DNA of 64,000 nt from Verrucomicrobiota bacterium (GCA_050011995.1 JBEKIA010000002.1:486-64485), one strand, 5' to 3'. Positions 45,330 through 64,000 are shown, counted from the first letter of the stretch. Numbers and translations are program-made. The notes: a model not told the origin generated them from the sequence alone.

Positions 45330-46175
45330 TCAGGCAACTGGATGCCTCGCCATTTCGTCGGCCAATTCGCTGGAGAATTTGTTGGCCTCCTGTTCGGAGA
45401 TGAAATCCTTTTTGACCGGCATCTTGTGCAGGATGTTCAATGCCTTGCCGTAAGCGGGCCTTAGCCTCTCAATGCGCGGCTCACCAATCAGCATCCAAAT
45501 CCGAAACTTCTCCTCGGAATCCTTGAGGTTGGTCGCACGTCCGAGCCAGCGGTTCGCCTTATCGAGAATGCTTTCGGAGTCCAGGAGGTCCAGCGAAATG
45601 GGCTGGTACAAATTCCAAGTGGCATTACGCCAAGCGTGGTCAAATTCGTGGTCATAGTCTTTTGCCATAATGCGCTTGGGTTGCATCCGGGACAAAACCT
45701 GCTTCGATTCCAGTTCCTTGCGAAACACCTTCCAAACATCGTCGTCCTGACGGCTCGGCAACTGTTCCCGTTGCTCATATTTTTCCACCAGCCTGACATA
45801 AAGTTGTTCCAGGGTCGCTGCCGGGTCTTCCGTGAGCCCCCCGTTTGGTTCTGCCCATTGCAGCGCGCTGTCGTCGCGCGGCAGAATGCTGTACGCGATT
45901 TCCATTATGCTCTTGGGCTGTTCTGCAAGCGGCAATTCGCTGGTAATCCTCGATGCATGCTCCTCAAACCGCGCCTGAATATACCGCATGACCGAGCGCA
46001 AATGGTCCCCGTTCACGTCAAGGAACATCTTGCTCAAGCGGCCATAGCGCGGATTGCAGATGGCGCTGATGTATTTGGCTTCCGGCGCGTAAAGCGCGAC
46101 ACCCATGTTCACGAACTCGCCCGTGGCGATGTCGTGGACGTATCGGAGAACGGTGTAGGTAAATGTCGTTTTCAT
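45330..46175 (-). CDS. DUF3037 domain-containing protein
   Basis: N-terminus MKTTFTYTVLRYVHDIATGEFVNMGVALYAP matches the DUF3037 hallmark (Y.VLRYV.D...GE.VN.GV.L). Its ATG overlaps the upstream stop (ATGA). Confidence 0.8.
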   Translation of the reverse strand: MKTTFTYTVLRYVHDIATGEFVNMGVALYAPEAKYISAICNPRYGRLSKMFLDVNGDHLRSVMRYIQARFEEHASRITSELPLAEQPKSIMEIAYSILPRDDSALQWAEPNGGLTEDPAATLEQLYVRLVEKYEQREQLPSRQDDDVWKVFRKELESKQVLSRMQPKRIMAKDYDHEFDHAWRNATWNLYQPISLDLLDSESILDKANRWLGRATNLKDSEEKFRIWMLIGEPRIERLRPAYGKALNILHKMPVKKDFISEQEANKFSSELADEMARHPVA

Positions 46176-46969
46176 TGCAACAGGTGTTCAATTACCCCGA
46201 ACAATGCCGTGCGATTTTGCCGTGCTTTTCGCAGATAATCGGCAATTTGTTGGGCTGCTTTGCTGTCTGTACGCCATTCATTCGGCACGGCTTCAATATA
46301 CTCATCCAAACGGGCATCCGTCAAAGCATCCAACGCCCCGGTCAACCGGCTCCAATCGTGCTTGAGGCCGGCCAACTGCTGGAAAAAGACGTGTTGGCGC
46401 AGGAATTCCGTGCCCTGGCCAGTCCAGGGCGGCTGCCAGCCAATGACGCCCATCAAAAAGGAAAATGCCTGTTCATGGTCGCACAGGAAAATCTCGTCGT
46501 CGCTCCACAACAGATTCGGGTTGTCCCACCGCCGGTCTGGATTTTGAATCAACACGTCAAAGGCGAAAATCTCGGCGGCGAGCGGGCGAAGCAGAACCGG
46601 AATCGGTTTGTCCCTGGGCCATGTGCCGACACCTGCCGGGAGCTTCTGGCTGCCGAAATTCAACCCGGCGCTCTTCCTGGCGATTGCCGAAAGCTCCGCC
46701 TTTCCTTCGCCAACAATGAATTTTTGGGGAACTTCGACGATGAACGGTTTTGGGACAGGCAAATCGAGGTCATTGGCCAGCAGGGCCGCCATGAGTTCGC
46801 AAATCAGCCCGGTTTCTTTCGTCTCCATTCCGCCGCGCCATTTAATCACTACTTCACAATCGTTGCCGCGGGCGTTGGTGCAAAGCATAAGACAAGGTCT
46901 TGTCCGGCCCGATGATAAGGCTCGCAATACCGTGGCCGCTTGGATTCGTGGAATATGGATCGCGCTCAT
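46172..46969 (-). CDS. HipA-like (HipA_2-type) serine/threonine kinase family protein
   Basis: FAFDVLIQNPDRRWDNPNLLW...IFLCDHEQAFSF resembles the catalytic D..N / DH loop of short HipA-family kinases, which are commonly paired with DUF3037. Confidence 0.7.
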   Translation of the reverse strand: MSAIHIPRIQAATVLRALSSGRTRPCLMLCTNARGNDCEVVIKWRGGMETKETGLICELMAALLANDLDLPVPKPFIVEVPQKFIVGEGKAELSAIARKSAGLNFGSQKLPAGVGTWPRDKPIPVLLRPLAAEIFAFDVLIQNPDRRWDNPNLLWSDDEIFLCDHEQAFSFLMGVIGWQPPWTGQGTEFLRQHVFFQQLAGLKHDWSRLTGALDALTDARLDEYIEAVPNEWRTDSKAAQQIADYLRKARQNRTALFGVIEHLLQ

Positions 46970-47106
46970 GGGTTGACCTGGCTGGCTCGCCGATTTAGGA
47001 GGGCGAGCAGTTGGCCGTAACCAGTGTAAAATATCAGGCGAACAGCCTTCTCGAAAAGTTCTGGTTTGAAGTCCTTTGGGTCGTAGCTACCGAGTAGTTC
47101 TGGCAT
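46966..47106 (-). CDS. Small ORF (46 aa) translationally coupled to the HipA-like gene
   Basis: Below the ORF-track cutoff. My own translation: MPELLGSYDPKDFKPELFEKAVRLIFYTGYGQLLALLNRRASQVNP*. Its TGA overlaps the HipA-like ATG (ATGA). No obvious SD. Confidence 0.3.
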   Translation of the reverse strand: MPELLGSYDPKDFKPELFEKAVRLIFYTGYGQLLALLNRRASQVNP

Positions 47107-52104: not shown

Positions 52105-53262
52105 ATGGCAAGTGTCACCAAACATCCGAAATCGCGGTTCTGGACGGCCTGCTTCTCCGGCCGCGACGGCCGACAGATGAAACGGTCGGCCAAGACCACC
52201 GACCGCAACGCCGCGCTCGAAATCGCCTTGGAACTGGAGCGGGTGGAGCGGCAGGCCAAGGCGGGCGCACTCACCACCAATCAACTGCGCAAGGTTCTAA
52301 ACGATGTTTCGGAAAAGGTCAACGGCGATACGCTCGCGACGCCTCCGGTCGAGGAATATCTCACAGATTGGCTCAAAAGCATCGCCGCCCGCAATTCGCC
52401 CTCAACGCACGAGCGATACCGCCACACGGTCGAACTCTTTGTGGCGCGGCTCGACGGCAGAGCCAAGAAGCCCATCACCTCGGTCATGCCAAAGGACATC
52501 GAGGATTTCCTGACATGGCGGCTGAATACCGGCGTTGCGCCCAAGACCGCCATCGTGGATTTGAAGACCTTGAACACCGCCTTTCGCCGCGCGGAAGTGT
52601 TCGGAACGATATTGAAGAATCCGGTCGCGGCCATCCGTCCGCCGAAATTGGAATCCTCGGAGCGGGAAGTCTTCACGCCGGAAGAGGTGAAGAGGCTCTT
52701 GGATGCCGCGCCGTCTTTGGAATGGCAGACGCTGATTCTCATGGGGTATTTCACAGGAGCCCGCTTGGGCGACTGCGTGTCCCTCAAGTGGGAGAACGTC
52801 AACCCGGAGCACGGAGCCATCATATACAGCCAGCAGAAAACGGGCAAGAAAGTCATCGTGCCCATGCACTTCCATGTGATCGAGCATGTGAAGTATCTCT
52901 CCACCTTCGGCACCAAGGGGTATCTCTGCCCGAAATTGGCCGCTATGGGTTCGGGCGGCAAGCAGGGGCTTTCCCAAGGATTCATGCGCATACTGAAGAC
53001 GGCGGGCATTGACCCCATGACCGTCGAGGGCAAGGGCGTGCGGAAGTTCGCCAAGCGCTCGTTCCATTCCCTGCGGCACAGTTTCAACTCAGCGCTGGCC
53101 AACGCCGGCGTGGCGGAGGAGATCCGCATGAAGCTGACCGGCCATTCCTCCAAGGCCATGAACGACCGCTATACGCATCTCCAAGTAGCCGCGCTCAAGA
53201 ACGCCGTGACCGCGCTGCCGCTTTTTAGCGCGGAGAGGGAGGGCCAGCCGCGCGGGGCTTAA
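52105..53262 (+). CDS. Tyrosine-type site-specific integrase
   Basis: N-terminal SAM-like domain. Catalytic residues in GARLGDC (Arg), HSLRHSF (H-x-x-R) and GHSSKAMNDRYTH (His...Tyr). Confidence 0.93.
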   Translation: MASVTKHPKSRFWTACFSGRDGRQMKRSAKTTDRNAALEIALELERVERQAKAGALTTNQLRKVLNDVSEKVNGDTLATPPVEEYLTDWLKSIAARNSPSTHERYRHTVELFVARLDGRAKKPITSVMPKDIEDFLTWRLNTGVAPKTAIVDLKTLNTAFRRAEVFGTILKNPVAAIRPPKLESSEREVFTPEEVKRLLDAAPSLEWQTLILMGYFTGARLGDCVSLKWENVNPEHGAIIYSQQKTGKKVIVPMHFHVIEHVKYLSTFGTKGYLCPKLAAMGSGGKQGLSQGFMRILKTAGIDPMTVEGKGVRKFAKRSFHSLRHSFNSALANAGVAEEIRMKLTGHSSKAMNDRYTHLQVAALKNAVTALPLFSAEREGQPRGA

Positions 53263-56200
53263 CGCTGCATGGCCTGCCGGAGTTCCGCAAGCATCCGCTC
53301 GGCCCGCTCTTTGATCTCTCTTTCCGAGAGCGGTTCGGAATTCATCTTCCGTTTTCGCGGCTTGCCCCGTTCCAGCGCCCCGCCTTCGGGGTCTGCCGCC
53401 GCCCAATCGAACAGTTTCGAAATGAACTCGTCGAGGGCGTAAAAGCCAACCTTGGCGGTCTGAGCGTTCGGTTTCATCTCGGCGTACCGCTCCCGAATTT
53501 TCGCCAGCTTCCGCCGGTCCGCGCACACGGCGGCAACGTGCCCGAAGCCGGCGTTCACGCACTTGGTAATGTTCGTCGCGGCCTCGTATTCAACCGTGTT
53601 GGTCACGGAAATCTCGCAGGCAATCGTCCGCGTTCCCCGGCGCAGCACAAGATCAATTCTCTTCTTACTCCCCGCCACGAATTCCTCGGGCTTGACGGTG
53701 TAATCCAGAACCTCGGCCTCGGCGGTGATCCTTTTCTTGATCGCGTCGTGCTGGGTGTCCTCCGGGGCGGGCATGGTGTCTGCTCCCGGAGACGAGGCGG
53801 CCGGCTGCCGGGCTTCGTCGCTTGTCTTCGGGACTTCGGCGGCGCTCGCTCTGGAAGTTTCTACTGGCGGCGGGGCGGAGACGGCCGCCGGCACTGGTGG
53901 CGGTTTCGGAACCTGGGCTTCTCCACAGACGGTCTCGGTTTTCGCCGGCTTCGGACTTTGCCGCCCGTTCTCCAACGTTCGACTCAACAGAGCCTCCACC
54001 TCTGCCCTCGGCGTGCCATACGCTTTCCTCGAAGCCGTGATGATCTCCGCCCGCCGCCTGGCCGCCTCTGTTTCGTCGGCTTTTTCGGGCAAGGGCACGC
54101 TGAGGTTGAAGTCGCAATCGCTCCCTTCGACGCGGCAGACCGCCTGGCCCTTCCCCAGGTTCTGCAAGTCCCGTGCCTCGAAGAAGGCGAAGCCTTCGGC
54201 GAGCCTGTTGGCGTCGTTGTCGCCGACATGGAACACGATCCGCGTGGCGGGATGGGACAGGACCGCGCTTGCCACGTCGGGGCTTTGCTCCAACTGGTGC
54301 AAATCGTGATGCGCCAGGGTGAGGCCAAGACGATACTTGCGAGTGCCTGACAAGATCTGGGCCATGCTGGGCGTGATGAAATGGTCGAATTCGTCAATAT
54401 AGAGCCAGAAGTCCCGGCGGAGGGACATGGCTTGCGCCTGGCGGCTCATGGCCAGTTGCTGGAATTTCGACACGAGGAGGGTGCCCAACAGGTAGGCGTC
54501 TTCAACCCCCATGAGTCCGACGGGCAGTTTGGCCAGAAAGATTTTGCCGGTGTCCATGATCTCCCCGAAATTGAGCCGGTTTTCGGGCTGTGAGACCATT
54601 AAGCGCATGGGCTTCTCGCTCAGGAACGTCTGCAAGCGCGTGAGGACGGGACCCACCGATCTCGTGCCGGTCAACTGGGGAAAGACCTTTTGCCAGTAAT
54701 AGACCACCTCCGGTTCGCGGACCGTGGCCAGGAACTCGCTGCGGAAGGCGGGTTCGGTGAGGAAGCGGCGCAAGTCGGAGAGGGTGCCGCCCGCGCTGCT
54801 TTCCAAGAATGCGAGTATGGCGTTGCGCAACACCATGTCCATCTGATCTCCCCAGGACGCGCTCAAACGCCGGAACATGGAAACGAGATCGGATGCCAAC
54901 AGAGTTTTTTCAACGTCGGAATGCGCGGAAAGGATATTGAAGCCGATGGAAAAATCCGTGTCAGAGGGATTGACCAAAATCACGTCATTCACGCGCGAGT
55001 CGGGGATGATCCCCAAAATCCGGTCAATCAAGTCGCCGGAGGGATCAAGCACGCCCACGCCCTGGCCGTTTTCAATATCTTGCCGGATGAGGTTGAATAG
55101 CAGCGTAGATTTGCCGGTGCCGGTGGCCCCGATCACATGCGTGTGCCGCACGCGCTGCTCGGTGGTGAGTCTCACGGGGATGGTCTCTCCCAGGTGGACA
55201 TTGTTGCCGAGCAGGAGTCCTGTGGCATTTCGGACACTTCCCGGCACCGCCTTCGTTCTCGCCGTGTCGCGTTCCAATGCCGATGAGCGCACGGCGCTTC
55301 CCGGCAGATGGACGAAGCCGATCAATTCGTCGCTGTTCAAAATCATCCCGGAACGCCGGGACTGGCGGCGAAGCACGTCTTCGACGTGGTCGTTGAAGGG
55401 GTATGTTTCGTTATCAAGCGGGATGAGTTCGTTGCCCTGGGGATCGGCGAACACCCGCAGTGAGCCAGCCATGTCGCGGGCAATCCGCAATGCGCCTTCA
55501 AAGGATTCGCTCTTGACGGCAATCCGCACGACCGCCGCATACAGAGGCCGCGCCACCTTGTGTTCCGCCGCCGCCGCCAACTCCGGCATATTGACGAAAA
55601 ACGGCTTGCCGTCCTCATGGGTGACTGAGCGCACGATGCTTTCCGGCCAGTCCTGCTCCACGGATTCAAAGAGGACCTGAAACAGGGCCAACTCCCCCGG
55701 CTCCAATTCGGAGAACGCTCCGACGATGCCGATGAAGGGATCAAGCGCGCCACACTCAAGAGGAAACATGAACTCGCGGGCCAAGCCGAATTCGGCCACC
55801 AGGATTTCCTTGCCCTCGCACGTCTCCCATGCGGCGGAAAGCGCGCCTTCGCGCGGCTGGAATGTGGCTTCGGGAAAATACGCCTGCAACTGCCGGCGCA
55901 CGATGGGGGCGTCATTCGGGTGCGCGGCGAACTGGACATTGACCCGCCCTGGGGTGCCGAGCATCTCAAAGGCGACCGGTTCGCGGCAGAAGGACAGATT
56001 TCGCAAGAATTGGTCAAAGGCGTCTTTGCCGATGTCGAGCTTGGCGGGCAGGGAAGTTTGAAGCTCGACGAGCGGTTCCCGTATCAAAGTATGCGGTTCG
56101 GGTTCCTGCTCCTCGGTCGGCGGCGCGGCAGGTTCCGAGGGCGTGGTTGAAAGCTTGCGGCTGAGTTTATCCACAAATGAACTCAAAAATGTCGGCTTGC

Positions 56201-56357
56201 GCCCGTCGTCCGCAATGGGCGTGTCGGGCAAATAGTGGCCGAAAAAAGGGCGGAACGGCGGTTCCGGGCTGACCGGCTCGTCAAACACCTGCCAGCCGCG
56301 CCCGCGCAATTCCCACCTGCGGAACTGTTCGCTCAACTGTTCATGGACTGTGGGCAT
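53259..56357 (-). CDS. Large P-loop ATPase of the TraD/VirD4 (T4CP)/FtsK-HerA type with unknown N-domain and C-terminal nuclease-like domain
   Basis: Walker A HVIGATGTGKSTLLFN, Walker B FWLYIDEFDHF, TraG-D_C-like SGTRKYRLGLTLAHHDLHQL. The ~370-aa N-domain begins ..WELRGRGWQVFDEPVSPEPPFRPFFGHY. The C-terminal ~130 aa include KRIDLVLRRGTRTIACEISVTN (PD-(D/E)xK-like; inference only). Confidence 0.85.
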   Translation of the reverse strand: MPTVHEQLSEQFRRWELRGRGWQVFDEPVSPEPPFRPFFGHYLPDTPIADDGRKPTFLSSFVDKLSRKLSTTPSEPAAPPTEEQEPEPHTLIREPLVELQTSLPAKLDIGKDAFDQFLRNLSFCREPVAFEMLGTPGRVNVQFAAHPNDAPIVRRQLQAYFPEATFQPREGALSAAWETCEGKEILVAEFGLAREFMFPLECGALDPFIGIVGAFSELEPGELALFQVLFESVEQDWPESIVRSVTHEDGKPFFVNMPELAAAAEHKVARPLYAAVVRIAVKSESFEGALRIARDMAGSLRVFADPQGNELIPLDNETYPFNDHVEDVLRRQSRRSGMILNSDELIGFVHLPGSAVRSSALERDTARTKAVPGSVRNATGLLLGNNVHLGETIPVRLTTEQRVRHTHVIGATGTGKSTLLFNLIRQDIENGQGVGVLDPSGDLIDRILGIIPDSRVNDVILVNPSDTDFSIGFNILSAHSDVEKTLLASDLVSMFRRLSASWGDQMDMVLRNAILAFLESSAGGTLSDLRRFLTEPAFRSEFLATVREPEVVYYWQKVFPQLTGTRSVGPVLTRLQTFLSEKPMRLMVSQPENRLNFGEIMDTGKIFLAKLPVGLMGVEDAYLLGTLLVSKFQQLAMSRQAQAMSLRRDFWLYIDEFDHFITPSMAQILSGTRKYRLGLTLAHHDLHQLEQSPDVASAVLSHPATRIVFHVGDNDANRLAEGFAFFEARDLQNLGKGQAVCRVEGSDCDFNLSVPLPEKADETEAARRRAEIITASRKAYGTPRAEVEALLSRTLENGRQSPKPAKTETVCGEAQVPKPPPVPAAVSAPPPVETSRASAAEVPKTSDEARQPAASSPGADTMPAPEDTQHDAIKKRITAEAEVLDYTVKPEEFVAGSKKRIDLVLRRGTRTIACEISVTNTVEYEAATNITKCVNAGFGHVAAVCADRRKLAKIRERYAEMKPNAQTAKVGFYALDEFISKLFDWAAADPEGGALERGKPRKRKMNSEPLSEREIKERAERMLAELRQAMQR

Positions 56358-56363
56358 GGGAAG

Positions 56364-57062
56364 TTACTTCTCTGGTTGGGCCGCCGGTTTCTTCCCCGAC
56401 AAGTCGGATTGAACGGGCGCTGGCTCCTGCTGCGCCGAGAGTTTGACGCCATGGGCCGCGATGCGTTCCTCGTAGATTCTCTTGACCACAACCGGCACGG
56501 TATCGAGATACATGACCCTGGTGTCCTGGCGATAATAGGTGTCCTTGCGGAACAGGATTTCGTAGATCGCGCCGATGCCGGGCTGCTTCACGAGCCAGGC
56601 GTCAAGGTCAGCAAGGCCGATTGACACGGCATTCCGCAGAATGGACGTGGCGACGGCCAATAATACCAGCAGGGCCAATATGCCGAAAAACCACCCCCAG
56701 ACATGAACAAACAGCCAGAAAATCAGCGCCACAACGAACAGGATCGCCAAAACGGCGTCCGGGCTGACGACCAGGGGCAGTTCGGCGAACCTACAGGAAA
56801 AGAAAAAGCTGGTGCCAAACGGGGCAGCGCAAATGTCGAACACCAGGCGTTCCCGGGTTAGGCGCAGGTATTCCCGCTTGGCGGAGAGCAGCCCGCCTTC
56901 GGCAAATTCGACGCGGGCGGCGTCCAGGCCCGGCACTTTCCGCTCCTCGAGCGACTTTTGGACGGCTGCGTAGAAGTCCTGCGGCGATGTCTGAAAGTTC
57001 TCCACGAGCTCGTGCCAGTAATGCAGTACTTCCGCTGTTTTCGGCTTTGCTTGACCAAACAT
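56364..57062 (-). CDS. Two-TM membrane protein, function unknown, coupled to the ATPase gene
   Basis: ORF trimmed to ATG 57062 (MFGQAKPKTAEVLHYWHELVENF). Soluble N-domain with VFDICAAPFGTSFFFSCRF, then two hydrophobic helices (AILFVVALIFWLFVHVWGWFFGILALLVLLAVA). Its stop is 6 nt before the ATPase ATG. Confidence 0.75.
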   Translation of the reverse strand: MFGQAKPKTAEVLHYWHELVENFQTSPQDFYAAVQKSLEERKVPGLDAARVEFAEGGLLSAKREYLRLTRERLVFDICAAPFGTSFFFSCRFAELPLVVSPDAVLAILFVVALIFWLFVHVWGWFFGILALLVLLAVATSILRNAVSIGLADLDAWLVKQPGIGAIYEILFRKDTYYRQDTRVMYLDTVPVVVKRIYEERIAAHGVKLSAQQEPAPVQSDLSGKKPAAQPEK

Positions 57063-57273
57063 ATTGTCCCTTTCCGTTGTTGCGTTGGCCCCGGCAGCGT
57101 CCCTGGCAGGCAAATCCCACAATGCACAGAGCATTTGTCCCGGTTAAGTTTGGGGCTGGGGCCAATATTGCACGGTTGACGGTTGGATGCAAGTTGAATT
57201 TTGCCGTTGCCCTGAAATGCTGAAATAGATGGTGGTTGCCAAAACTCCATGCCTGTCATTCGACTTTAGCGGA

Positions 57274-57681
57274 TTATGATCGACTCTTAATCACATCTGA
57301 GTGATAATACTTCTTTCCACGCGGAATAAGATTTGTCTCAACTTCATCCGGCTGAAAGAAAGCGCGCACAAATTCCGCCAATCGCTCAGTGCGGAACGGG
57401 CCGCAAGAATAGATATCGATTGAAATGAAGTTCTTTGCTGAAAGCGTGTGAATCTGAATGCCGCTTTCAATTAATGGAACCCATCCGCTTAGACCGGCCT
57501 TCCCAGGGTATTTGTTTCGGTCGCTGCGGAAAATAAACGGCGGGGATTGCTTTTGCATCCGCAGCTCGTCCACAAGCCTCTCCAAGAAATCATAGCATAA
57601 CGCGATATCGTCACAAACGCCTTCCTTACACTCGTAAAGGTCCAATGTGAAAAGAAACCCAAATGGCTTATTCGCGTCCAT
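57274..57681 (-). CDS. Pyruvoyl-dependent decarboxylase of the S-adenosylmethionine decarboxylase (SpeD/SpeH, class 1) fold
   Basis: 135 aa. GLSGWVPLIESGIQIHT (Glu-Ser self-processing site + His), SIDIYSCG (Cys) and IPRG are collinear with small bacterial AdoMetDC proenzymes. It starts 2 nt after the PtuB-like stop. Confidence 0.75.
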   Translation of the reverse strand: MDANKPFGFLFTLDLYECKEGVCDDIALCYDFLERLVDELRMQKQSPPFIFRSDRNKYPGKAGLSGWVPLIESGIQIHTLSAKNFISIDIYSCGPFRTERLAEFVRAFFQPDEVETNLIPRGKKYYHSDVIKSRS

Positions 57682-57683
57682 GG

Positions 57684-58379
57684 TTAATTTCTTTGAGCGA
57701 CGTTTGCGTTGCGACTACATTTGTGCCTGAGAAGATTGTCCATTGCATACTCGACCAGCGAACCGTACGGACCGTGACACATGGCCATTAGATGCTTTAT
57801 TCTGGCATCTACACCAACGGCACTCACGTCCTTATTAATTTCAGTGATTGCATAGACTGCGCTATCCCATATTTCTCGGCGAGCTGTGAGAAGTGCATCC
57901 CGGTCCAAGTCTGTATCTCGCCACGTTGTCTCTCCACGGCGGGAAAGAGGTAACCGCCAGACGCCAAACTCGTCAATCTTATATGATAAGTGATCACTAA
58001 TTGGAATGTCAAGAACGGCATCGAGGATAGGATGCTCCTTACTAAACTTAATCCCCTTGTGGGAGTTGCACCTTGAGCAGGCTAAGTGCATGTTATCCCA
58101 CCGGAATGCATGCTTAGGGTATTTTTGCTTGGGGCGGCGATGCTCAATATGCTCGTAGCTTACGGTTGCAATCCGCGCTTCGCAATAGCAGCACAAACCT
58201 TTGTACATGGAATTTAATGCGTCGCGGACGTCATCGCACTGATACCTGTCATAGAATTTCTTGGGCACCTTTTTAGCACGTTTCCGACTTTTCCCTATTG
58301 CTGCCAGGAGTTCGGCAGTCCATTTGGCTGCATTTCTTTGCAAACTCACTGGCTTGCCAATGCGCTTGACGTTACGCAT
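57684..58379 (-). CDS. ptuB: HNH endonuclease, PtuB/TIGR02646-like (Septu component)
   Basis: GLCCYCEARIATVSYEHIEHRRPKQKYPKHAFRWDNMHLACSRCNSHKG is the HNH motif. It starts 2 nt after the ATPase stop. Confidence 0.8.
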   Translation of the reverse strand: MRNVKRIGKPVSLQRNAAKWTAELLAAIGKSRKRAKKVPKKFYDRYQCDDVRDALNSMYKGLCCYCEARIATVSYEHIEHRRPKQKYPKHAFRWDNMHLACSRCNSHKGIKFSKEHPILDAVLDIPISDHLSYKIDEFGVWRLPLSRRGETTWRDTDLDRDALLTARREIWDSAVYAITEINKDVSAVGVDARIKHLMAMCHGPYGSLVEYAMDNLLRHKCSRNANVAQRN

Positions 58380-58381
58380 CG

Positions 58382-59677
58382 TTATCCTTTCTTCCGGCCG
58401 GAAGGTAAGCTGCCAATATTTCTCAATTTGGATGAGGTCAGAGTCACATCCATACCCGGGATGCCGTTGAACTGATCTGTAATCTCTCGCATCTTGGCAC
58501 GACCACGAGGGGAGAGTTTTCCCAAAAGAGACTTGAGGTGGAGTTCCTTGAAATCATCAAGCAGGTTCTGTATCTTGATTGCCCGAGTGCTTGCAAGCCC
58601 CATGTTTCTGTAAACGTCTTCGGCAATCCATCCATAAACGCTTGGGCTTTCACTTCTTGCTTCCGGTTGTTGCGGAGCCAGATTAACAAGCTGGAGACCG
58701 GCGCAACCTGACTGTACAAGCGGAGAGTGTGTCGTCACTATGAACTGCAACTTGGGGAAGGTGCTGGTCAGAAGGTGCATGATCTGTATCTGCCAGACAG
58801 GATGGAGATGTTGCTCGATTTCATCGATAAGCACTATCCCTGAGGCTTCCAAGGAACGGTCTGGAACCCTGCGTCGCATTCCCCTGTTTATGATATGGAG
58901 AATGCGATTCGGCCCTACGGCTTGCATGTACCAGTTAATGAGGTCGAGAACCAACGTTGCCATCGCGCTATAGCCGTCTCCAGAAGACCGGATGTCAGTA
59001 TCGCCCCTGGGACGCTTAACCCTAATTCCGGAACCCCTGAGTTTTAACCTGTCTTTAATGTTGAGGATTCGTCTAACCAGTTGCAACAGATGCTCCCCGA
59101 CGCGCGTCTCTTCCTTCAAGCCAGACTTCGGTCCAGACCGGAGCCAAGCCTCATCCATAATCCGACGCAAGGTAAGCTCGGGGTTCTGAAGAGGTTCGTA
59201 GTAACGAAACAGCGTGTACACTGCGTCGACAGCGCGGTATTTATCGTAATCTGCAGTCCCCGATGCATGCCGGCCAGCGCCGTACCCGCACACAAAAATT
59301 TGTTTCCATGGAAATTTATCCTGCTTCCGCTTTTCCCAACGGCCATTCTTCTGCGACAGATCTTGTTCGATTTGTTCAAACGGCTTCTGCCTCTTGATCG
59401 TTGTGAAGGTTCGATACCTGCGAGTCTTACGGTCCTCAAGCTCGATATCGATTGTTGCCGCGCTCTCACCTGTCCGGACAAAGCTGCCGGGCAATTCGCG
59501 CAACAATCCCGCAGCGCTGGTTACGTCGCACAACCCCATCGCAATACTGCGGAGAATTGTCGTCTTTCCGGCCCCATTGTCACCCGCGATTACAACGGAT
59601 CCGCCATGCCGGTTGATCTTGATCTTCTGTTTGTCAAACCTGCGAACATCACGAAGCTCGATTTCAGAAATGTACAT
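58382..59677 (-). CDS. ptuA: ABC-type AAA_15/AAA_21 ATPase, PtuA-like (Septu component)
   Basis: MYISEIELRDVRRF..., Walker A GDNGAGKTT, signature-like SSGDGYS, Walker B VLIDEIEQHLHP, H-loop TTHSP. Confidence 0.8.
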   Translation of the reverse strand: MYISEIELRDVRRFDKQKIKINRHGGSVVIAGDNGAGKTTILRSIAMGLCDVTSAAGLLRELPGSFVRTGESAATIDIELEDRKTRRYRTFTTIKRQKPFEQIEQDLSQKNGRWEKRKQDKFPWKQIFVCGYGAGRHASGTADYDKYRAVDAVYTLFRYYEPLQNPELTLRRIMDEAWLRSGPKSGLKEETRVGEHLLQLVRRILNIKDRLKLRGSGIRVKRPRGDTDIRSSGDGYSAMATLVLDLINWYMQAVGPNRILHIINRGMRRRVPDRSLEASGIVLIDEIEQHLHPVWQIQIMHLLTSTFPKLQFIVTTHSPLVQSGCAGLQLVNLAPQQPEARSESPSVYGWIAEDVYRNMGLASTRAIKIQNLLDDFKELHLKSLLGKLSPRGRAKMREITDQFNGIPGMDVTLTSSKLRNIGSLPSGRKKG

Positions 59678-60086: not shown

Positions 60087-60341
60087 TCAGACCCCCTCCG
60101 TTGCAAGAGCATCGACATAATCCCAAGGATATACGGGCCGGAGGTCGTTTGCCCCGCGAAAGGCGGCGCGAGTTCCGCTGGGCAATGCCAGCCAGGCGGC
60201 GTACGCCAATCTCTGGTCCTCATAATGCGTAACCTGGCCGTCCGGGAAGCAGATTCGTGCCTTCCGGGTGTCAAGCGGGGATGAGGATTTCATCGTGCCC
60301 TTTCCTCCGTCCCGACGGCCAACTTGCGCCGATTCAGTCAT
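60087..60341 (-). CDS. Hypothetical protein
   Basis: ATG 60341 overlaps the ArdC stop by 8 nt (alternative ATG 60293). ..MKSSSPLDTRKARICFPDGQVTHYEDQRLAYAAWLALPSGTRAAFRGANDLRPVYPWDYVDAL. No family recognised. Confidence 0.5.
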   Translation of the reverse strand: MTESAQVGRRDGGKGTMKSSSPLDTRKARICFPDGQVTHYEDQRLAYAAWLALPSGTRAAFRGANDLRPVYPWDYVDALATEGV

Positions 60342-61201
60342 GGGCCACCTCGCTTTCCTCGAATTTCCTGCCAAGAACGAAGTCCGCCGCTCGCTGTGCC
60401 TGTGCGGCTGCATGGACGATCAATTTCTTGTCGTCCTTCATCCGCTTTAGCCACTCGGTGACATACGCCGCGGGATTGTCAATAGTCCGCTCGGTGATCT
60501 CCGCCTGGCCGCACAGAAATGCGGCCCCGATCTCGGCAATCAGTTCCTCCTTGCAATACAGGTCGGAACCAAAGCCCGCCTGCTCGTTCAAGGTTGACCG
60601 GTTCAAACGGCTCTCGTGGCCGGTCGAATGGACCTTATGCCGACATCGGCATAAGGTCCATAATGCCGCATCCCGGATTATGCCGCGCCGGCATTGCGAC
60701 ATAATCCTCGCGGAGCGAATAGAATGCGCGCGTGAAGCCGTCCTTGATGGCCGGCCTCTGCGGCATGTTGGCAACGATGTCCTCCGGTTTGGAGGACATC
60801 ACTGGCTCTGCGCCATTCGGGGCCGCCGGATGGCCGTGCTTCAACCCTTCGCATTGGGCCAGATTGAAGACGTGATAATAGCGGAGGAGCGGGATTTCCC
60901 GCTTTTCGCTGTCATCCTTTTCTCCAACCGTGAGCCGTTTCCAGAAGACCACGGGACAGGCTTTTTCGCCCTTCCTGACCGTGCCGCCAAGCATGTTGGC
61001 CTGACGGAGCGTGAGCCAACAGGGGGACTCGTAGCCCATGCAGTGAAACAACAGTACGTTTATCCCCCTGTACGGCTTTTTCGTGACGAGATTCCGGGGC
61101 CAGCCGGTGGATGCTTTCCACGGCTTGTGCCAGGGAACGGTGCCTTGCTCAAGCAAGGCGATGATCTGCCCGGTGATGCGTTCGTATGCGTATGCGCTCA
61201 T
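60334..61201 (-). pseudogene. ardC: ArdC-like antirestriction protein (ssDNA-binding N-domain + metalloprotease-like C-domain), frameshifted
   Basis: The N-domain is in ORF 60635..61201 (GTVPWHKPW, KPYRGINVLLF). The C-domain is in ORF 60334..60774 (HSTGHESRLNR...GFGSDLYCKEELIAEIGAAFLC). The frames switch near 60690. The HExxH position reads RHKVH and coincides with a 30-bp perfect palindrome. Confidence 0.75.
60630..60659. repeat. 30-bp perfect palindrome inside the ardC-like gene
   Basis: ggaccttatgccga-ca-tcggcataaggtcc (14-bp arms). More nested inverted repeats (ggattatg...cataatcc, aatgccg...cggcatt) follow at 60661-60708. Confidence 0.9.
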
Positions 61202-61518
61202 GCCGGCCTCCTTTCCGTTTGGCGGTTGCCATTGCGGTTAAGGATTTCCACTTCGGCGTTGGGCGAGATGCGGAACGTGGCGGGTGATGGCTGGAATGCC
61301 ACTGGCTTCCAGAATCGGGTCTTGAACACCCTGGGCGGGCGGTTCATAATCACGACCGCCGCGCAGTCGTTCACCCGGATGACACGGCAAAGCCGGTTGT
61401 CAAAGCGGATGACGTCACCTGCACGAAGCCGGGTGGCCGGCGGCTGGAGTAGCCGCCAGATCAGGCTGACGAACCGGGCCTGGTTGGGGTCGATGAAAGG
61501 TTTTCGGGTTCGTTTCAT
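61198..61518 (-). CDS. Hypothetical protein
   Basis: 106 aa (MKRTRKPFIDPNQARFVSLIWRLL...). Its stop overlaps the ArdC ATG (ATGA), so it is in the operon. Confidence 0.6.
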   Translation of the reverse strand: MKRTRKPFIDPNQARFVSLIWRLLQPPATRLRAGDVIRFDNRLCRVIRVNDCAAVVIMNRPPRVFKTRFWKPVAFQPSPATFRISPNAEVEILNRNGNRQTERRPA

Positions 61519-61526
61519 AGCGACTC

Positions 61527-62027
61527 CTATTGGTTGAGGCAGCCCATTTCGCGCAGTGACGCGTGATTGGGGTTGCCGATGATGACGTGGTCCAAGACTT
61601 CGATCTTGAGCAACTGCCCGGCCCGGAAGAGGTCACGGGTGACTTTGATGTCGGCTTCCGACGGCGACGGCTCCCCTGATGGGTGATTGTGCATGAGGAC
61701 GACGGCCGCCGCACTGCCGACCACTGCGGTTCGGAACACCTCGCGCGGATGCACGAGCAGGGAGTCCATCGTTCCGATGGTGACGATCTGGTGCCCCTTG
61801 ACCTTGCGGCGGGTGTTGAGAAGGATGACCACCAGGCATTCGCACTCGGCGTTTAGCTGGGGCGACGTGGCGATGTGCATCCTCCAATACTCGACCGCCT
61901 TCTCCGGCGTGTCGCATATCTGCAACCGCTCCGGGGTGGGGCATTCGCGCAAGGCGACCACTCTCCATTCCTTGGGCTGGTATTTCCGTTTCTCCTTTTC
62001 AGGCTTGAACATTTGTATCTGTTCCAT
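61527..62027 (-). CDS. radC: RadC-family JAB/MPN domain protein
   Basis: ORF trimmed to ATG 62027 (MEQIQMFKPEKEK...). JAMM motif VVLMHNHPSGEPSPSEADIKVT. Confidence 0.88.
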   Translation of the reverse strand: MEQIQMFKPEKEKRKYQPKEWRVVALRECPTPERLQICDTPEKAVEYWRMHIATSPQLNAECECLVVILLNTRRKVKGHQIVTIGTMDSLLVHPREVFRTAVVGSAAAVVLMHNHPSGEPSPSEADIKVTRDLFRAGQLLKIEVLDHVIIGNPNHASLREMGCLNQ

Positions 62028-62155
62028 GTATTCTCTTTCCGCCGTCCACCTGCTACAAACAGGCTGCTTCTGGTTGGTGTATTCTCGCTGGAAGCGCGGA
62101 CGGCATTTTGTTTTGCCAGCGAGAGAGTTTTGGGGCGGATGCTCTGACAGCCGCA

Positions 62156-62806
62156 TCAGGTTTCCTTATCGATCCTGTCCCTGGCGGCTTGGTGATACCG
62201 CCAGAGCTTTTCCATGAGAATGAATTGCCGTCCGCACATTGCTGCGGCCACCGCCGTCGAGCCCGAGCCGCCAAAGGGATCAAGCACGACATCCCCCGGC
62301 TCTGAGCACGCGATGATGATCGGTGTCAGGACGGAAAGCGGCTTCTGGTTCGGATGTAGGGCATTGCCGCTGTATGTCCATTGGATCACGTCCCGGAGCG
62401 GCTCAACCGGCCTTCTCGGCTCTCCTTTGGCCAGGAGATATGCCAGTTCGTGATGGCCGCGCGTGAATCCCGTCTTGGAAGGGTAGTCCTTCACGAAGAC
62501 GAGGTGGCCGACTGGCACGAAGCCGATTCTCTTCCACTGCCAGAGGAACCGCTCGGCCTGGCTCCAGCCGTAGAAGCTGACGCAGAACCGGTCGGGCTTG
62601 AGGACACGGAAGATTTCGGTGAAGGCCGGTTCGAGCCAGCGGCGGTTGTCGTCATTGGCAATGCTGCGGCCGTCGCGGGGAACGTAATTGGCCAGGTACG
62701 GCGGATCGGTCAAAACCAGGTCAACGCTTTCGGCGGGCATGGAGGGCATAATCTCCAGGCAATCGCCGTGAATGACCTGATTGAGGAATGACTGCGGGGT
62801 GTTCAA
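62156..62806 (-). CDS. DNA methyltransferase (N6_N4_Mtase family, beta class), no cognate endonuclease
   Basis: Motif IV VDLVLTDPPYL precedes motif I VLDPFGGSGSTAVAA. TTG 62806 is preferred because AAGGAG lies 6 nt upstream. The ORF-track start is 62860. Confidence 0.88.
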   Translation of the reverse strand: MNTPQSFLNQVIHGDCLEIMPSMPAESVDLVLTDPPYLANYVPRDGRSIANDDNRRWLEPAFTEIFRVLKPDRFCVSFYGWSQAERFLWQWKRIGFVPVGHLVFVKDYPSKTGFTRGHHELAYLLAKGEPRRPVEPLRDVIQWTYSGNALHPNQKPLSVLTPIIIACSEPGDVVLDPFGGSGSTAVAAAMCGRQFILMEKLWRYHQAARDRIDKET

Positions 62807-62878
62807 GTGATACTCCTTTCGTTTTGGGGTTTCGGTGAAAAAAGGCAACCTCCCTCGCACGAGAGAGGTTGTTGTTAT

Positions 62879-63205
62879 TCAGAGGCGGTAATCCTCGAAT
62901 GTTGCGGCCAGTCCGTCTTCGTCGCCGCCCAGGAGCTCCTCAATCGCCGCTTTGGTCATGACTTTCTCCAAGTTCGGCTTGGCGTCTTTGGGGCAGGCCG
63001 GGCAGCGCTTGACGTTAATCACCGATCCCCCGAATTCCCAGCCGGCGGCGCGGAATGCACCCCGGTAGTGTTCGGAGAGCTTTTGATTGCGGGGAAGCGC
63101 AGACCAGGCTTCGGCTTCCTCGGGCGGCAGGGCGTCGTAAATGGCGTCGTGCCGGAGGTGATATACGTCCCAGGGCTCGCCGCAGGTGGAACAATGAACG
63201 TCCAT
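62879..63205 (-). CDS. Hypothetical Cys-pair (zinc-ribbon-like) protein
   Basis: MDVHCSTCGEPWDVYHLRHD...VKRCPACPKD contains two CxxC pairs. No family recognised. Confidence 0.6.
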   Translation of the reverse strand: MDVHCSTCGEPWDVYHLRHDAIYDALPPEEAEAWSALPRNQKLSEHYRGAFRAAGWEFGGSVINVKRCPACPKDAKPNLEKVMTKAAIEELLGGDEDGLAATFEDYRL

Positions 63206-63217
63206 AGTATTCTCCTT

Positions 63218-63517
63218 TCATGCGTGTCCAAACGCGGTGATGGTTTCCCTGATCTGCTCCTCCGTGAGCGTCCAGCCCGCGTAGGGCAAACCGGCCACCA
63301 CGGACTTGAAGTCATGGTGCCACTCAACCGCCGTCTCGTCGTCGCCGAAACAGTCGGCCAAGAGGGCGAGCGCCAGTTGCGCCGGGCCGCTGCCCGCGTA
63401 GCCCCACTCGAATCCGGTCGGACTGTGATTCCACAAGTCCAGGCGGGGATTGAGAGGAGCCCCATCAACGGTGACATCGGCGGCGGTGCCATTGCGCCTT
63501 CCTACGTACCGCTTCAT
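63218..63517 (-). CDS. DUF6166-like protein
   Basis: ORF trimmed to ATG 63517 (overlaps the primase stop, ATGA). NHSPTGFEWGYAGSGPAQLALALLADCFG matches the DUF6166 core as I remember it. Confidence 0.6.
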   Translation of the reverse strand: MKRYVGRRNGTAADVTVDGAPLNPRLDLWNHSPTGFEWGYAGSGPAQLALALLADCFGDDETAVEWHHDFKSVVAGLPYAGWTLTEEQIRETITAFGHA

Positions 63518-64000
63518 TGGACACCTCCGCACAATTGGGCCACTTCCTCGGCGCTCATCTGCTCCGGCTGCCGGCCTTCCTCGGCGAAGGCATGAACCTT
63601 CACGAAAAGGAATCTGGCCAAACGAAGCGCGATGTCTTCGCGTCCGGCCCGGCCTGCCTCGTCCTCGTCCAGCATGACGATGGCCTGGCTAGTCGCGTTG
63701 GTATGTTTCTTGATCAACCCCTCCTGCGCCGCTGACATGGTGCTGCCCATCAAGGCGACGACCTTGCGAAGCCCAAGCTGGTGCAACTTCATGCAGCCAA
63801 AGAAGCCTTCAACGATGACCAATGGCTTTTCAGGTGGTTCCTTGATCGCCCGGTCGATGTTGAAAAGCTCCAGGGATTTGCGGAAGCCCTGGGGGAGCTT
63901 GTATTTCGGAGTGCCCTCGGGCGGCTCGCCCGGAAAGCGGCCCGCGTAGGCCACGACCTCGCCCTCCGGGTTGTGGATCGGAATGGCGATCCGGTCGGCC
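63514..64000 (-). CDS. DnaG-type primase, toprim domain part (5' end outside window)
   Basis: The frame is open to the window edge (..ADRIAIPIHNPEGEVVAYAGRFPG...KYKLPQGFRKSLELFN). Toprim Glu in LVIVEGFFGCMKLHQ and DxD in IVMLDEDEAGR. Confidence 0.85.
   Translation of the reverse strand, partial: ADRIAIPIHNPEGEVVAYAGRFPGEPPEGTPKYKLPQGFRKSLELFNIDRAIKEPPEKPLVIVEGFFGCMKLHQLGLRKVVALMGSTMSAAQEGLIKKHTNATSQAIVMLDEDEAGRAGREDIALRLARFLFVKVHAFAEEGRQPEQMSAEEVAQLCGGVQ

What the first reader, a model, noticed from the sequence alone, without database searches (positions are those of the whole stretch)
53259..57062. Uncharacterised two-gene module: 2-TM protein plus 1032-aa TraD/VirD4-like ATPase with a novel N-domain and a nuclease-like C-terminus
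The two genes are co-oriented with a 6-nt gap. The large protein has a T4CP/FtsK-HerA-type NTPase core (GATGTGKST; YIDEFDHF; RKYRLGLTLAHHDLHQL) but none of the N-terminal TM helices expected of a coupling protein. Instead, a separate upstream gene supplies two TM helices. The ~370-aa N-domain (WELRGRGWQVFDEPVSPEPPFRPFFGHY...) matches nothing I recognise. After a Pro/Ala-rich linker, the C-terminus (..EAEVLDYTV..KRIDLVLRRGTRTIACEISVTN..) looks like a PD-(D/E)xK-type restriction-endonuclease fold. ATPase-nuclease fusions of this superfamily next to a defence cassette suggest a DNA-targeting conflict system rather than (or as well as) a conjugative coupling protein. No relaxase or T4SS genes are visible in the window.
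Basis: partly seen in the sequence, partly recalled or inferred. Interest (0 to 1): 0.62.

Follow-up and report, generated by a model that had tools for sequence, protein, structure and literature searches.

The report
Transfer ATPase of a mobile element
The two genes are a conserved membrane-anchor plus DNA-pumping ATPase pair belonging to the backbone of a roughly 26 kb integrating mobile element common in Verrucomicrobia; it is most likely the element's conjugative coupling motor, unusual in carrying a built-in nuclease domain, and not a defence system.

Summary
A 232-aa two-TM protein (56364-57062, -) lies 6 nt upstream of a 1032-aa ATPase with no TM helix (53259-56357, -), and all quoted motifs are present. 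The pair is kept together in 75 of 82 related loci. The ATPase core is coupling-protein (TrwB/TraD) type. The C-domain models confidently as a PD-(D/E)xK nuclease, with D902 and E915 invariant. The N-domain is Pfam DUF8128, not unmatched: its fold best resembles the VirB4 N-terminal domain. A Bacillus plasmid homologue sits directly upstream of a MOB_C relaxase, beside a separate VirB4.

The defence reading is not supported. The pair is backbone, lying next to a recombinase in 53 of 60 loci. The Septu cassette beside it occupies a variable cargo slot.

Near-identical contigs extend the element past 64 kb. They show a MOB_C (Replic_Relax) relaxase, a TraT-like protein and a second, core-only paralogous ATPase. 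No T4SS genes appear in about 26 kb.

Best reading (0.58): a split coupling protein of an integrative mobilizable element of the MOB_C-plus-own-coupling-protein kind. The fused nuclease and N-domain make it a new variant. Function is untested.

The parts
56364..57062 (-). 232-aa membrane partner. It has a conserved N-terminal cytoplasmic domain of about 95 aa, a two-TM hairpin at about aa 95-150, and a conserved C-terminal cytoplasmic segment. The alternative upstream start at 57134 is probably not used.
   Evidence: 1,211 homologues, about 232 aa, no Pfam hit; hydropathy and conservation; RBS before M25; directly upstream of the ATPase in about 68 of 75 loci, gap -17 to +21 nt.
53259..56357 (-). 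1032-aa soluble ATPase. The whole gene overlaps the stop of the convergent integrase gene by 4 nt.
56178..56357 (-). ATPase aa 1-60. This is a highly conserved motif region (F12 W15 E16 G19 R20 G21 ... E32 P33 F35 F38 D50 D51) that is predicted to be disordered. It is probably a partner-binding segment (inference).
   Evidence: conservation; pLDDT below 50.
55203..56075 (-). ATPase aa 95-385, the structured N-domain (Pfam DUF8128). It is an alpha/beta fold whose best match in the PDB is the N-terminal domain region of TrwK/VirB4.
   Evidence: PF26449 = DUF8128 in homologues; pLDDT 80-94; Foldseek E 4e-5, probability 1.0, TMq 0.40; profile matches aa 55-315 of the Bacillus plasmid protein.
53988..55190 (-). 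ATPase aa 390-790, a coupling-protein-type P-loop motor. Walker A is GATGTGKS (K416), followed by a DPSGD motif. Walker B is YIDEFD (D655 E656).
   Evidence: TrwB_AAD_bind 1.1e-12, 48 bits against a cut-off of 20.5; profile against the PDB: TrwB 4.5e-9, DotL 1e-6, no VirB4; T4SS-DNA_transf and TraG-D_C in 13 and 10 of 33 homologues; invariant catalytic residues.
53763..53975 (-). ATPase aa 795-865, a Pro/Ala-rich linker that varies in length.
53388..53762 (-). ATPase aa 866-990, a PD-(D/E)xK-fold nuclease-like domain. H870, E891, D902, E915, E925 and K932 are conserved.
   Evidence: pLDDT 88.7, alpha-beta-beta-beta-alpha-beta topology; top hits are the R2 restriction-like endonuclease domain, EcoT38I, AF1548, R.BspD6I, Bax1 and Can2, E 1e-3 to 1e-1; D902 and E915 invariant in 69 diverse sequences.
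52105..53262 (+). Tyrosine integrase of the element, convergent with the ATPase. Host genes begin at 51833.
   Evidence: (a recombinase within 4 kb downstream of the ATPase in 53 of 60 loci).
57274..59677 (-). Cargo slot of the element. Here it holds Septu (PtuA 58382-59677, PtuB 57684-58379) plus an AdoMet_dc-like gene (57274-57681).
   Evidence: The same slot holds unrelated genes in L002, L083 and L084.
60334..64000 (-). Remaining backbone of the element inside the window: ArdC (split), a 106-aa ORF, RadC, an N6/N4 DNA methyltransferase, a 108-aa ORF, DUF6166 and a Toprim primase cut by the window end. The element continues for about 14-18 kb beyond 64000.

Best explanation
The two genes form the membrane-tethered DNA-translocation motor, a split type IV coupling protein, of an integrative mobilizable element of about 26 kb.

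Shown:
- The ATPase core is of the TrwB/TraD/VirD4 kind with intact Walker motifs.
- The ATPase itself has no membrane segment, and a conserved gene 6 nt upstream encodes a protein with a hydrophobic block consistent with a two-TM hairpin.
- The pair is a fixed backbone module next to the recombinase.
- The same element carries a MOB_C (Replic_Relax) relaxase, a primase, ArdC, RadC, a TraT-like lipoprotein and a second, core-only paralogous ATPase. It has no T4SS genes.

Inferred:
- After excision, the MOB_C relaxase processes the origin of transfer.
- The 2-TM protein anchors a hexamer of the 1032-aa ATPase at the inner membrane. The contact is probably made through the VirB4-NTD-like N-domain and/or the conserved N-terminal peptide.
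- The motor hands the DNA to a mating channel supplied by a co-resident conjugative element. CloDF13-type plasmids and some streptococcal IMEs that carry a MOB_C relaxase plus their own coupling protein work this way.
- The C-terminal PD-(D/E)xK domain, with its conserved acidic residues, binds or cuts the DNA substrate. It could perform a second-strand or termination cleavage, or structure-specific processing. This last step is the least supported.
For: Core family:
- Pfam TrwB_AAD_bind matches above its cut-off.
- All 33 homologues match TrwB_AAD_bind. 13 match T4SS-DNA_transf and 10 match TraG-D_C. None matches a VirB4 family.
- A profile search of the PDB finds TrwB at 4.5e-9 and DotL at 1e-6.

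Pairing: the 2-TM gene is present in 75 of 82 loci, and 5 of the 7 loci lacking it are cut off at a contig edge.

Backbone position: a recombinase lies within 4 kb in 53 of 60 loci. Host genes PriA and Sua5 lie just beyond the recombinase in L086.

Variable cargo lies between ArdC and the pair.

Same element beyond the window:
- Replic_Relax scores 79.9 bits against a cut-off of 25.3.
- TraT and a 456-aa paralogous ATPase are present.
- No T4SS family appears among the roughly 30 genes listed.

Literature:
- Replic_Relax is the MOB_C relaxase family (PMC5357655, PMC12857230).
- MOB_C plus an own VirD4-type coupling protein is the known signature of mobilizable plasmids and IMEs that carry their own coupling protein (PMC5704250).
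- A small 2-TM protein has been proposed to anchor a TM-less coupling protein in pIP501, TraI with TraJ (PMC12857230).

The Bacillus plasmid NZ_CP086062.1 homologue aligns to aa 233-715 at E 4e-25. It lies directly upstream of a Replic_Relax gene and next to TcpC, TcpE and an AAA_10 VirB4.
Against: - No helper T4SS has been shown in any host genome.
- The element has two coupling-protein-like paralogues. In many loci it is the small paralogue, not this protein, that lies next to the relaxase, so the small one could be the true coupling protein.
- The protein scores far below the curated cut-offs of every NCBIfam TraD model, for example 35 bits against 366.
- The N-domain's best fold match is VirB4, not a coupling protein.
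- As far as I know, no coupling protein has been reported with a fused nuclease.
- All evidence is computational.
Confidence: 0.58

Rival explanations
1. The element is self-transmissible through a reduced or unrecognised transfer apparatus. In this reading the 1032-aa protein acts as the VirB4-like energising ATPase and the upstream 2-TM protein as its VirB3-like partner. The small paralogue next to the relaxase is the coupling protein. Other conserved membrane proteins (the PEGA-domain protein, TraT-like lipoprotein and small TM proteins) form the rest of the channel.
For: The N-domain's best structural matches are TrwK/VirB4 chains of R388 (E 4e-5 to 4e-4, probability 1.0, about 360 aligned columns). 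According to PMC12857230, virB3 genes encode small 2-TM proteins lying immediately next to virB4, and the VirB4 N-terminal domain contacts VirB3. The small paralogue sits next to Replic_Relax in many loci. A PEGA-domain membrane protein lies divergently upstream of the pair in 38 of 82 loci. No element examined contains a T4SS.
Against: By sequence, the ATPase core is coupling-protein type and not VirB4. There is no CagE_TrbE_VirB or AAA_10 hit and TrwK is not found by the profile. The Bacillus homologue coexists with a separate genuine VirB4. The 2-TM protein is 232 aa, about twice the size of VirB3. There is no polytopic VirB6-like protein and no outer-membrane core, both of which a diderm host would need. 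TMq is only 0.40, and the aligned region of VirB4 could not be inspected.
Confidence: 0.15
2. This is the first reader's reading: a DNA-targeting conflict or exclusion module. A HerA/FtsK-type motor is fused to a nuclease, is tethered to the membrane, and degrades incoming phage or rival plasmid DNA.
For: The architecture combines an ATPase with a PD-(D/E)xK domain whose catalytic-type residues are conserved. PADLOC gives hits to mad8 (5e-17) and to HerA models. The pair lies next to a Septu cassette. From my own knowledge, HerA-nuclease defence systems exist.
Against: The mad8 hit covers only the P-loop core and is equally strong for the core-only paralogue (1.2e-17). No other MADS gene is present. 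The pair has a fixed backbone position beside the recombinase in 53 of 60 loci, whereas the slot holding Septu here holds unrelated genes in related elements. The pair travels with a relaxase, primase and ArdC. Its Bacillus homologue sits inside a conjugation operon.
Confidence: 0.12
3. The pair serves the element's own maintenance. It could act as an FtsK-like translocase-nuclease that resolves, segregates or replicates the excised circle. Alternatively it could package DNA into particles or vesicles.
For: The core belongs to the FtsK-HerA superfamily. The gene is adjacent to, and overlaps the stop of, the recombinase gene. The element encodes its own primase.
Against: No capsid or particle genes appear in the roughly 26 kb element. 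Only 2 full-length relatives occur among 2.9 million IMG/VR viral contigs, against 414 loci in species genomes. The closest sequence families are conjugative coupling proteins, not FtsK (FtsK_SpoIIIE E 0.026).
Confidence: 0.08

Closest known systems
Type IV coupling proteins (TrwB of R388, TraD, VirD4, DotL)
   Same: The P-loop motor is the same type, with Walker A followed by DPxGD and Walker B hhhDE. The gene is linked to a relaxase within a transmissible element.
   Different: There is no N-terminal TM domain, and a separate 2-TM gene lies upstream instead. The protein has a 385-aa N-domain (DUF8128) and a C-terminal PD-(D/E)xK domain. It scores far below the curated TraD family cut-offs. 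No T4SS lies in cis.
Mobilizable elements with a MOB_C relaxase plus their own coupling protein (CloDF13 MobC/MobB; Streptococcus IME_SsalCCHSS3; PMC5704250)
   Same: The combination is the same: a PD-(D/E)xK-type MOB_C relaxase, an element-encoded coupling protein and no mating-pore genes. Like the streptococcal IMEs, the element is integrative.
   Different: There are two paralogous coupling-protein-like ATPases. The large one has the extra N-domain and nuclease domain. The host phylum is Verrucomicrobiota. The backbone also carries a primase, ArdC, RadC and a methyltransferase.
Bacillus plasmid 'DUF87 domain-containing protein' (904 aa, NZ_CP086062.1 and about 70 related Bacillus plasmid records)
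   Same: It is homologous over the structured N-domain and the ATPase core (aa 233-715, E 4e-25; the N-domain profile matches its aa 55-315). It has no obvious N-terminal TM segment. It is associated with Replic_Relax.
   Different: It lies in a full FA-type T4SS operon with TcpC, TcpE and an AAA_10 VirB4. It lacks the conserved N-terminal peptide and the C-terminal nuclease domain, since the C-domain profile finds nothing in it. It is only 23% identical.
VirB4/TrwK with VirB3/TrwM
   Same: The N-domain resembles VirB4 at fold level. A 2-TM protein is encoded immediately upstream, as with virB3-virB4 (PMC12857230).
   Different: The ATPase core is not VirB4-like by sequence. The partner is twice the size of VirB3. 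No other T4SS parts are present.
pIP501 TraJ (TM-less coupling protein) with TraI (small 2-TM protein)
   Same: A soluble coupling protein is proposed to be anchored by a separate small two-TM protein (PMC12857230).
   Different: No sequence relationship was tested. pIP501 is a Gram-positive conjugative plasmid with a complete T4SS.

Membership tests
Type IV coupling protein (VirD4/TraD/TrwB) | FtsK/HerA-class nucleotide-binding domain with T4CP-type Walker A and Walker B motifs | tested here: met
   TrwB_AAD_bind scores 48.1 bits against a cut-off of 20.5. The profile finds TrwB at 4.5e-9 and DotL at 1e-6 in the PDB. G410, G413, G415, K416, D655 and E656 are invariant.
Type IV coupling protein (VirD4/TraD/TrwB) | N-terminal transmembrane domain anchoring the hexamer | tested here: not met
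   The maximum 19-residue hydropathy is 1.44, so no TM helix is predicted. A separate 2-TM protein is encoded 6 nt upstream. Anchoring in trans is inferred, not shown.
Type IV coupling protein (VirD4/TraD/TrwB) | Reaches the curated full-length family thresholds (NCBIfam TraD models) | tested here: not met
   SXT_TraD scores 35.4 bits against 366. conj_TOL_TraD scores 31.8 against 648. TraD_Ftype scores 19.4 against 521.
Type IV coupling protein (VirD4/TraD/TrwB) | Encoded in a transmissible element together with a relaxase | tested here: met
   A Replic_Relax (MOB_C) gene lies in the same element about 11 kb away. It was seen in 17 other loci within the 10 kb flank. It is directly adjacent in the Bacillus plasmid.
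Type IV coupling protein (VirD4/TraD/TrwB) | Works with a T4SS (VirB4 plus a mating channel) | not testable with these tools
   No T4SS genes appear in the roughly 26 kb element or among recurrent neighbours. Whole host genomes could not be scanned.
VirB4 (T4SS energising ATPase) | VirB4-type N-terminal domain | tested here: inconclusive
   Foldseek's best PDB hits are TrwK/VirB4 chains (E 4e-5, TMq 0.40). The aligned residues were not visible. There is no sequence-level signal.
VirB4 (T4SS energising ATPase) | VirB4-type C-terminal ATPase (Pfam CagE_TrbE_VirB or AAA_10) | tested here: not met
   No such hit appears in 33 homologues even at E up to 5. TrwK is not found by the profile in the PDB. 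TIGR00929 matches only the P-loop, at 18.5 bits against a cut-off of 643.
PD-(D/E)xK nuclease superfamily (C-domain) | alpha-beta-beta-beta-alpha-beta core fold | tested here: met
   The model has pLDDT 88.7 with elements H5-22, E26-32, E39-46, E49-56, H61-74 and E79-84. The top Foldseek hits are all PD-(D/E)xK enzymes, although none has E below 1e-3.
PD-(D/E)xK nuclease superfamily (C-domain) | Catalytic D ... (D/E)xK signature | tested here: inconclusive
   D902 on strand 2 and E915 on strand 3 are invariant, and E891 is nearly invariant. The canonical lysine position is S917. A nearly invariant K932 lies on the following helix. Activity was not tested.
Integrative mobilizable element, MOB_C plus own coupling protein type | Own integrase, relaxase and coupling protein, with no mating-pore genes | tested here: met
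   Tyrosine integrase, Replic_Relax, two coupling-protein-like ATPases, and no T4SS genes. The precise att sites were not found.
Anti-phage defence (MADS mad8; HerA-nuclease systems) | Specific match to the system's protein together with the system's other genes | tested here: not met
   The mad8 hit at 5e-17 covers only aa 404-740 and is matched at 1.2e-17 by the core-only paralogue. The 2-TM protein has no PADLOC hit, and no other mad genes are nearby.

The most novel reading that the evidence does not exclude
These compact elements, some apparently only about 14 kb, may move DNA between diderm Verrucomicrobial cells without a canonical T4SS. Only a MOB_C relaxase, two paralogous coupling-protein-like motors and a few small membrane proteins are visible. 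On this reading the large motor's VirB4-like N-domain, its 2-TM partner and its fused PD-(D/E)xK nuclease would replace functions normally spread over a dozen T4SS proteins.
Probability: 0.12. Interest if true: 0.85.

Novelty: new variant of a known kind. Interest (0 to 1): 0.45.

Why it matters
The window contains one end of a very common but undescribed family of integrative elements in Verrucomicrobiota. There are 414 loci among species-representative genomes, and several genomes carry more than one copy. These elements ferry defence systems such as Septu and other cargo.

The transfer motor is an unusual coupling-protein variant. It is soluble, it is paired with a separate membrane protein, and it carries a VirB4-like N-domain and a conserved nuclease domain.

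If the nuclease is active, this would be a coupling protein that also processes its DNA substrate. If no helper T4SS exists, it would point to a new minimal route of DNA transfer.

A practical point follows from the gene order. The gene next to a defence cassette is backbone, not defence, which matters for guilt-by-association screens for new immune systems.

Tried and rejected
1. C-domain as a MOB_C-like relaxase domain. hhalign of the C-domain profile against 15 Replic_Relax proteins gave probability 0.6%. Rejected.
2. MADS or HerA defence membership. The mad8 hit is generic core similarity, shared by the paralogue. Rejected.
3. Virus or packaging ATPase. Only 2 full-length relatives occur in IMG/VR and the element has no capsid genes. 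Rejected.
4. att sites. There is no direct repeat of 11 nt or more between L001 1-2000 and the integrase flank. Only chance-level 10-12-mers link the flank to L091 15.3-20.8 kb. The boundaries remain approximate.
5. tRNA integration target. The window has no tRNA gene.
6. Sequence-level link between the N-domain and VirB4. hhalign against the Bacillus AAA_10 VirB4 found nothing.
7. T4SS genes in 133 non-redundant neighbouring ORFs of related loci. None appeared among the families listed, but only 25 of 120 families were shown, so this check is not exhaustive.
9. An exact-protein look-up of the window ATPase failed because the public copy differs by one residue near the C-terminus.
10. A literature search for DUF8128 returned nothing.

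Full report
**1. Observation**

The 1032-aa ORF runs 53259-56357 on the minus strand. A 256-aa ORF runs 56364-57134 on the same strand, 6 nt upstream of the first.

Homologues of the small protein are about 232 aa. GGAAAGGG lies just upstream of M25.

Every quoted motif is present at the stated place. The large protein has no hydrophobic stretch that could span a membrane: its maximum 19-residue hydropathy is 1.44. The small protein has one continuous hydrophobic block at about aa 95-150, consistent with two helices, flanked by conserved soluble segments.

The large protein's family is large and conserved. More than 2,900 proteins match it. There are 414 loci in 185,579 species-representative genomes, nearly all Verrucomicrobiota MAGs.

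**2. The three regions of the large protein**

*(a) ATPase core, aa 390-790*
- Pfam TrwB_AAD_bind matches above its threshold.
- All 33 homologues tested match TrwB_AAD_bind and DUF87. 13 match T4SS-DNA_transf and 10 match TraG-D_C. No VirB4 family appears, even at E up to 5.
- A family profile searched against PDB sequences finds TrwB (4.5e-9) and DotL (1e-6), but not TrwK/VirB4.
- Walker A and Walker B residues are invariant across 69 sequences that are 36-52% identical to the window protein.
- Scores against the curated TraD models are an order of magnitude below their cut-offs. This is a distant branch of the coupling-protein family, not a standard TraD.

*(b) C-domain, aa 866-990*
- An AlphaFold model built from 40 sequences is confident (pLDDT 88.7). 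It has the alpha-beta-beta-beta-alpha-beta order of the restriction-endonuclease fold.
- The best PDB matches by Foldseek are all PD-(D/E)xK enzymes: the R2 restriction-like endonuclease domain, EcoT38I, AF1548, R.BspD6I, Bax1 and Can2. Their E-values are modest, from 1e-3 to 1e-1.
- D902 and E915 are invariant. H870, E891, E925 and K932 are nearly invariant in the diverse alignment.
- The lysine is not at the canonical ExK position, so catalytic competence is likely but not proven.

*(c) N-domain*
- It is not unknown to databases. Homologues carry precomputed hits to Pfam PF26449, named DUF8128. The local Pfam copy lacks this model.
- A phmmer scan of 1.84 billion cluster representatives with aa 1-385 finds 1,111 proteins. 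Among the best 150, nearly all full-length ones are about 1,000-1,060 aa with the domain at the N-terminus. The architecture is fixed.
- The model is confident for aa 95-350 (pLDDT 80-94). It is below 50 for aa 1-90, although that stretch holds the most conserved motif of the domain.
- The best PDB matches to the model are TrwK/VirB4 chains of the R388 T4SS (E 4e-5 to 4e-4, about 360 aligned columns, TMq 0.40). FAD-oxidase substrate domains follow, with shorter alignments.
- The query contains no P-loop, so this points to the VirB4 N-terminal domain. I could not see the aligned residues, and there is no sequence-level support. I treat it as a lead, not a finding.

**3. Pairing**

I fetched 80 genomic loci plus two metagenomic ones and searched their ORFs with the window proteins.
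- The 2-TM protein is found in 75 of 82 loci.
- In about 68 of those it lies on the same strand directly upstream of the ATPase, with a gap of -17 to +21 nt.
- In three loci an insertion of 1.2-2.5 kb separates the two genes.
- Five of the seven loci lacking it are cut off at a contig edge.

The pair is therefore conserved.

**4. Context: a mobile element, with the pair in its backbone**

Gene order is shared across loci that are 55-68% identical in the ATPase. It runs as follows.
- Optional small paralogous ATPase
- Replic_Relax
- Toprim primase
- DUF6166
- Small ORFs
- DNA methyltransferase
- RadC
- ArdC
- Variable cargo
- Optional divergent PEGA-domain membrane protein
- 2-TM gene
- Large ATPase
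- Recombinase

A recombinase starts within 4 kb downstream of the ATPase in 53 of 60 loci that have enough flank. 42 are large serine recombinases and 11 are tyrosine integrases. In L086 the next genes are priA and sua5, which are host genes.

The slot between ArdC and the pair holds different genes in different elements.
- Here it holds Septu (PtuA/PtuB).
- In L083 it holds an ABC transporter.
- In L002 it holds DUF3800, a proteasome-like gene and an IS.
- In L084 it holds transport and methyltransferase genes.

Adjacency to a defence cassette therefore reflects a cargo hotspot. It does not indicate a shared function.

**5. Beyond the window**

Near-identical public contigs extend the element. 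There are 55 mismatches in 10.8 kb.

L087 and L091 show, past the primase and in this order, the genes below.
- Guanylate cyclase
- 146-aa ORF
- 301-aa Replic_Relax protein (79.9 bits against a cut-off of 25.3)
- NERD protein
- Small TM proteins
- TraT-like lipoprotein
- Conserved 263-aa protein (2,634 homologues)
- 3-TM protein
- TIR-like protein
- SET protein
- 456-aa ATPase that is only the coupling-protein core

Then come an IS110, HicAB and a giant Laminin_G protein. In several other loci the small ATPase lies immediately next to Replic_Relax, and flanking genes differ beyond it.

The element in the window is thus about 26 kb, from about 51.9 kb to about 77.7 kb in window-equivalent coordinates. 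None of its roughly 30 genes carries a T4SS family. The att sites were not found.

**6. What the relaxase tells us**

Replic_Relax (PF13814) is the MOB_C relaxase family (PMC5357655, Table 1). It is related to restriction endonucleases (PMC3424549, PMC12857230).

[quoted passage not shown] It also reports streptococcal IMEs with the same combination. These elements are thought to substitute their own coupling protein for that of a helper T4SS. The element here fits that class.

**7. A cultivated-organism anchor**

tblastn against 72,556 plasmids finds 142 records, none covering 80% of the query.
- Proteobacterial and actinobacterial hits match the core only.
- Bacillus plasmids (about 70 records) and haloarchaeal plasmids also match the last third of the N-domain.
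- In Bacillus sp. BC1-43 plasmid NZ_CP086062.1, the 904-aa homologue aligns to aa 233-715 (E 4e-25). The Verrucomicrobial N-domain profile aligns to its aa 55-315.
- That gene is followed directly by a Replic_Relax gene and then by TcpC, TcpE and an AAA_10 (VirB4) ATPase. Together these form a complete FA-type conjugation operon.

The homologue therefore occupies the coupling-protein position and coexists with a separate VirB4. This is the strongest argument that the window protein is a coupling-protein relative and not a VirB4. The Bacillus protein lacks the nuclease domain.

**8. Mechanism proposed**

*Shown:* the domain composition, the pairing, the backbone position, the element inventory and the homologue context.

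*Inferred:*
- The 2-TM protein tethers a hexameric motor to the inner membrane. The proposed pIP501 TraI-TraJ arrangement is a precedent (PMC12857230).
- The motor receives DNA processed by the MOB_C relaxase and delivers it to a channel provided in trans.
- The nuclease domain acts on the substrate DNA.

The roles of the two paralogues cannot be separated with the present data.

**9. Rivals**

- *Self-sufficient reduced apparatus.* This treats the pair as VirB4/VirB3-like. It rests on the fold hit and on the absence of any T4SS in cis. The core's sequence affinity and the Bacillus context argue against it.
- *Defence.* This rests on the architecture and a PADLOC mad8 hit. That hit covers only the P-loop core and is reproduced by the core-only paralogue.
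- *Packaging or viral role.* Only 2 full-length relatives occur in IMG/VR.

**10. Verdict**

The module is a new variant of a known kind, a coupling-protein-type transfer ATPase. It sits in a family of Verrucomicrobial integrative elements that I found no description of in the literature searched. Interest is moderate.

Noticed in passing
window 57274-57681 (-): An S-adenosylmethionine-decarboxylase-like gene (AdoMet_dc, 1.3e-16) starts 2 nt after the PtuB stop, in the same operon as PtuA/PtuB. It may be a third gene of this Septu variant. It has no PADLOC hit.
   Followed up: partly
window 60334-61201 (-): ArdC is split here into a 188-aa ArdcN ORF and a separate short MPTase-PolyVal ORF. The same split is seen in all near-identical contigs, whereas L083 has an intact 288-aa ArdC. 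This is probably a frameshifted anti-restriction gene.
   Followed up: partly
L091 14041-15411 (window-equivalent about 75.9-77.3 kb); L078 2571-4094; L020 919-2448: A stand-alone paralogue of the ATPase core (430-510 aa, 33-36% identical to aa 375-800, no TM helix) lies at the opposite end of the element. It is often directly upstream of the Replic_Relax relaxase gene.
   Followed up: partly
L085 5725-7500; L086 2827-4539; 38 of 82 loci: A membrane protein of about 580 aa with a PEGA domain is encoded divergently, immediately upstream of the 2-TM gene, in almost half of the related elements. It is absent from the window's element.
   Followed up: partly
window 56178-56357 (ATPase aa 1-60): The most conserved stretch of the N-terminus (WExRGRGW ... 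PEPPFxPF ... DDG) is predicted to be disordered (pLDDT below 50). This suggests a peptide that folds on a partner.
   Followed up: no
L091 10001-10792: A 263-aa soluble protein in the element's second cargo or backbone region has 2,634 homologues and no Pfam family. It was not seen within 10 kb of the ATPase in other loci.
   Followed up: partly
L091 6644-7504, 12557-14096, 17851-18320: The part of the element beyond the window carries further conflict-type genes: a NERD protein, a TIR-like protein (CAP12-PCTIR; PADLOC PDC-S35 2.5e-7), a SET-domain protein and HicAB.
   Followed up: no
L042 12753-13562 and downstream; contigs CAISYZ01, JBKQWF01, DATNEA01, JANWKE01: Several MAGs carry two or three copies of the element on different contigs. 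L042 has an inverted partial second copy abutting the first.
   Followed up: no
window 30000-35000 and 44000-47000: Two stretches have G+C of 0.49-0.54 against a background of about 0.62. They may be other acquired DNA, unrelated to this element.
   Followed up: no
L096 3182-11111 (Halococcus dombrowskii plasmid NZ_CP095009.1): The haloarchaeal relative (1,327 aa) lies next to a second DUF87 ATPase (975 aa) that has a C-terminal helix-hairpin-helix domain, with two small ORFs between them. This is another two-ATPase arrangement.
   Followed up: no
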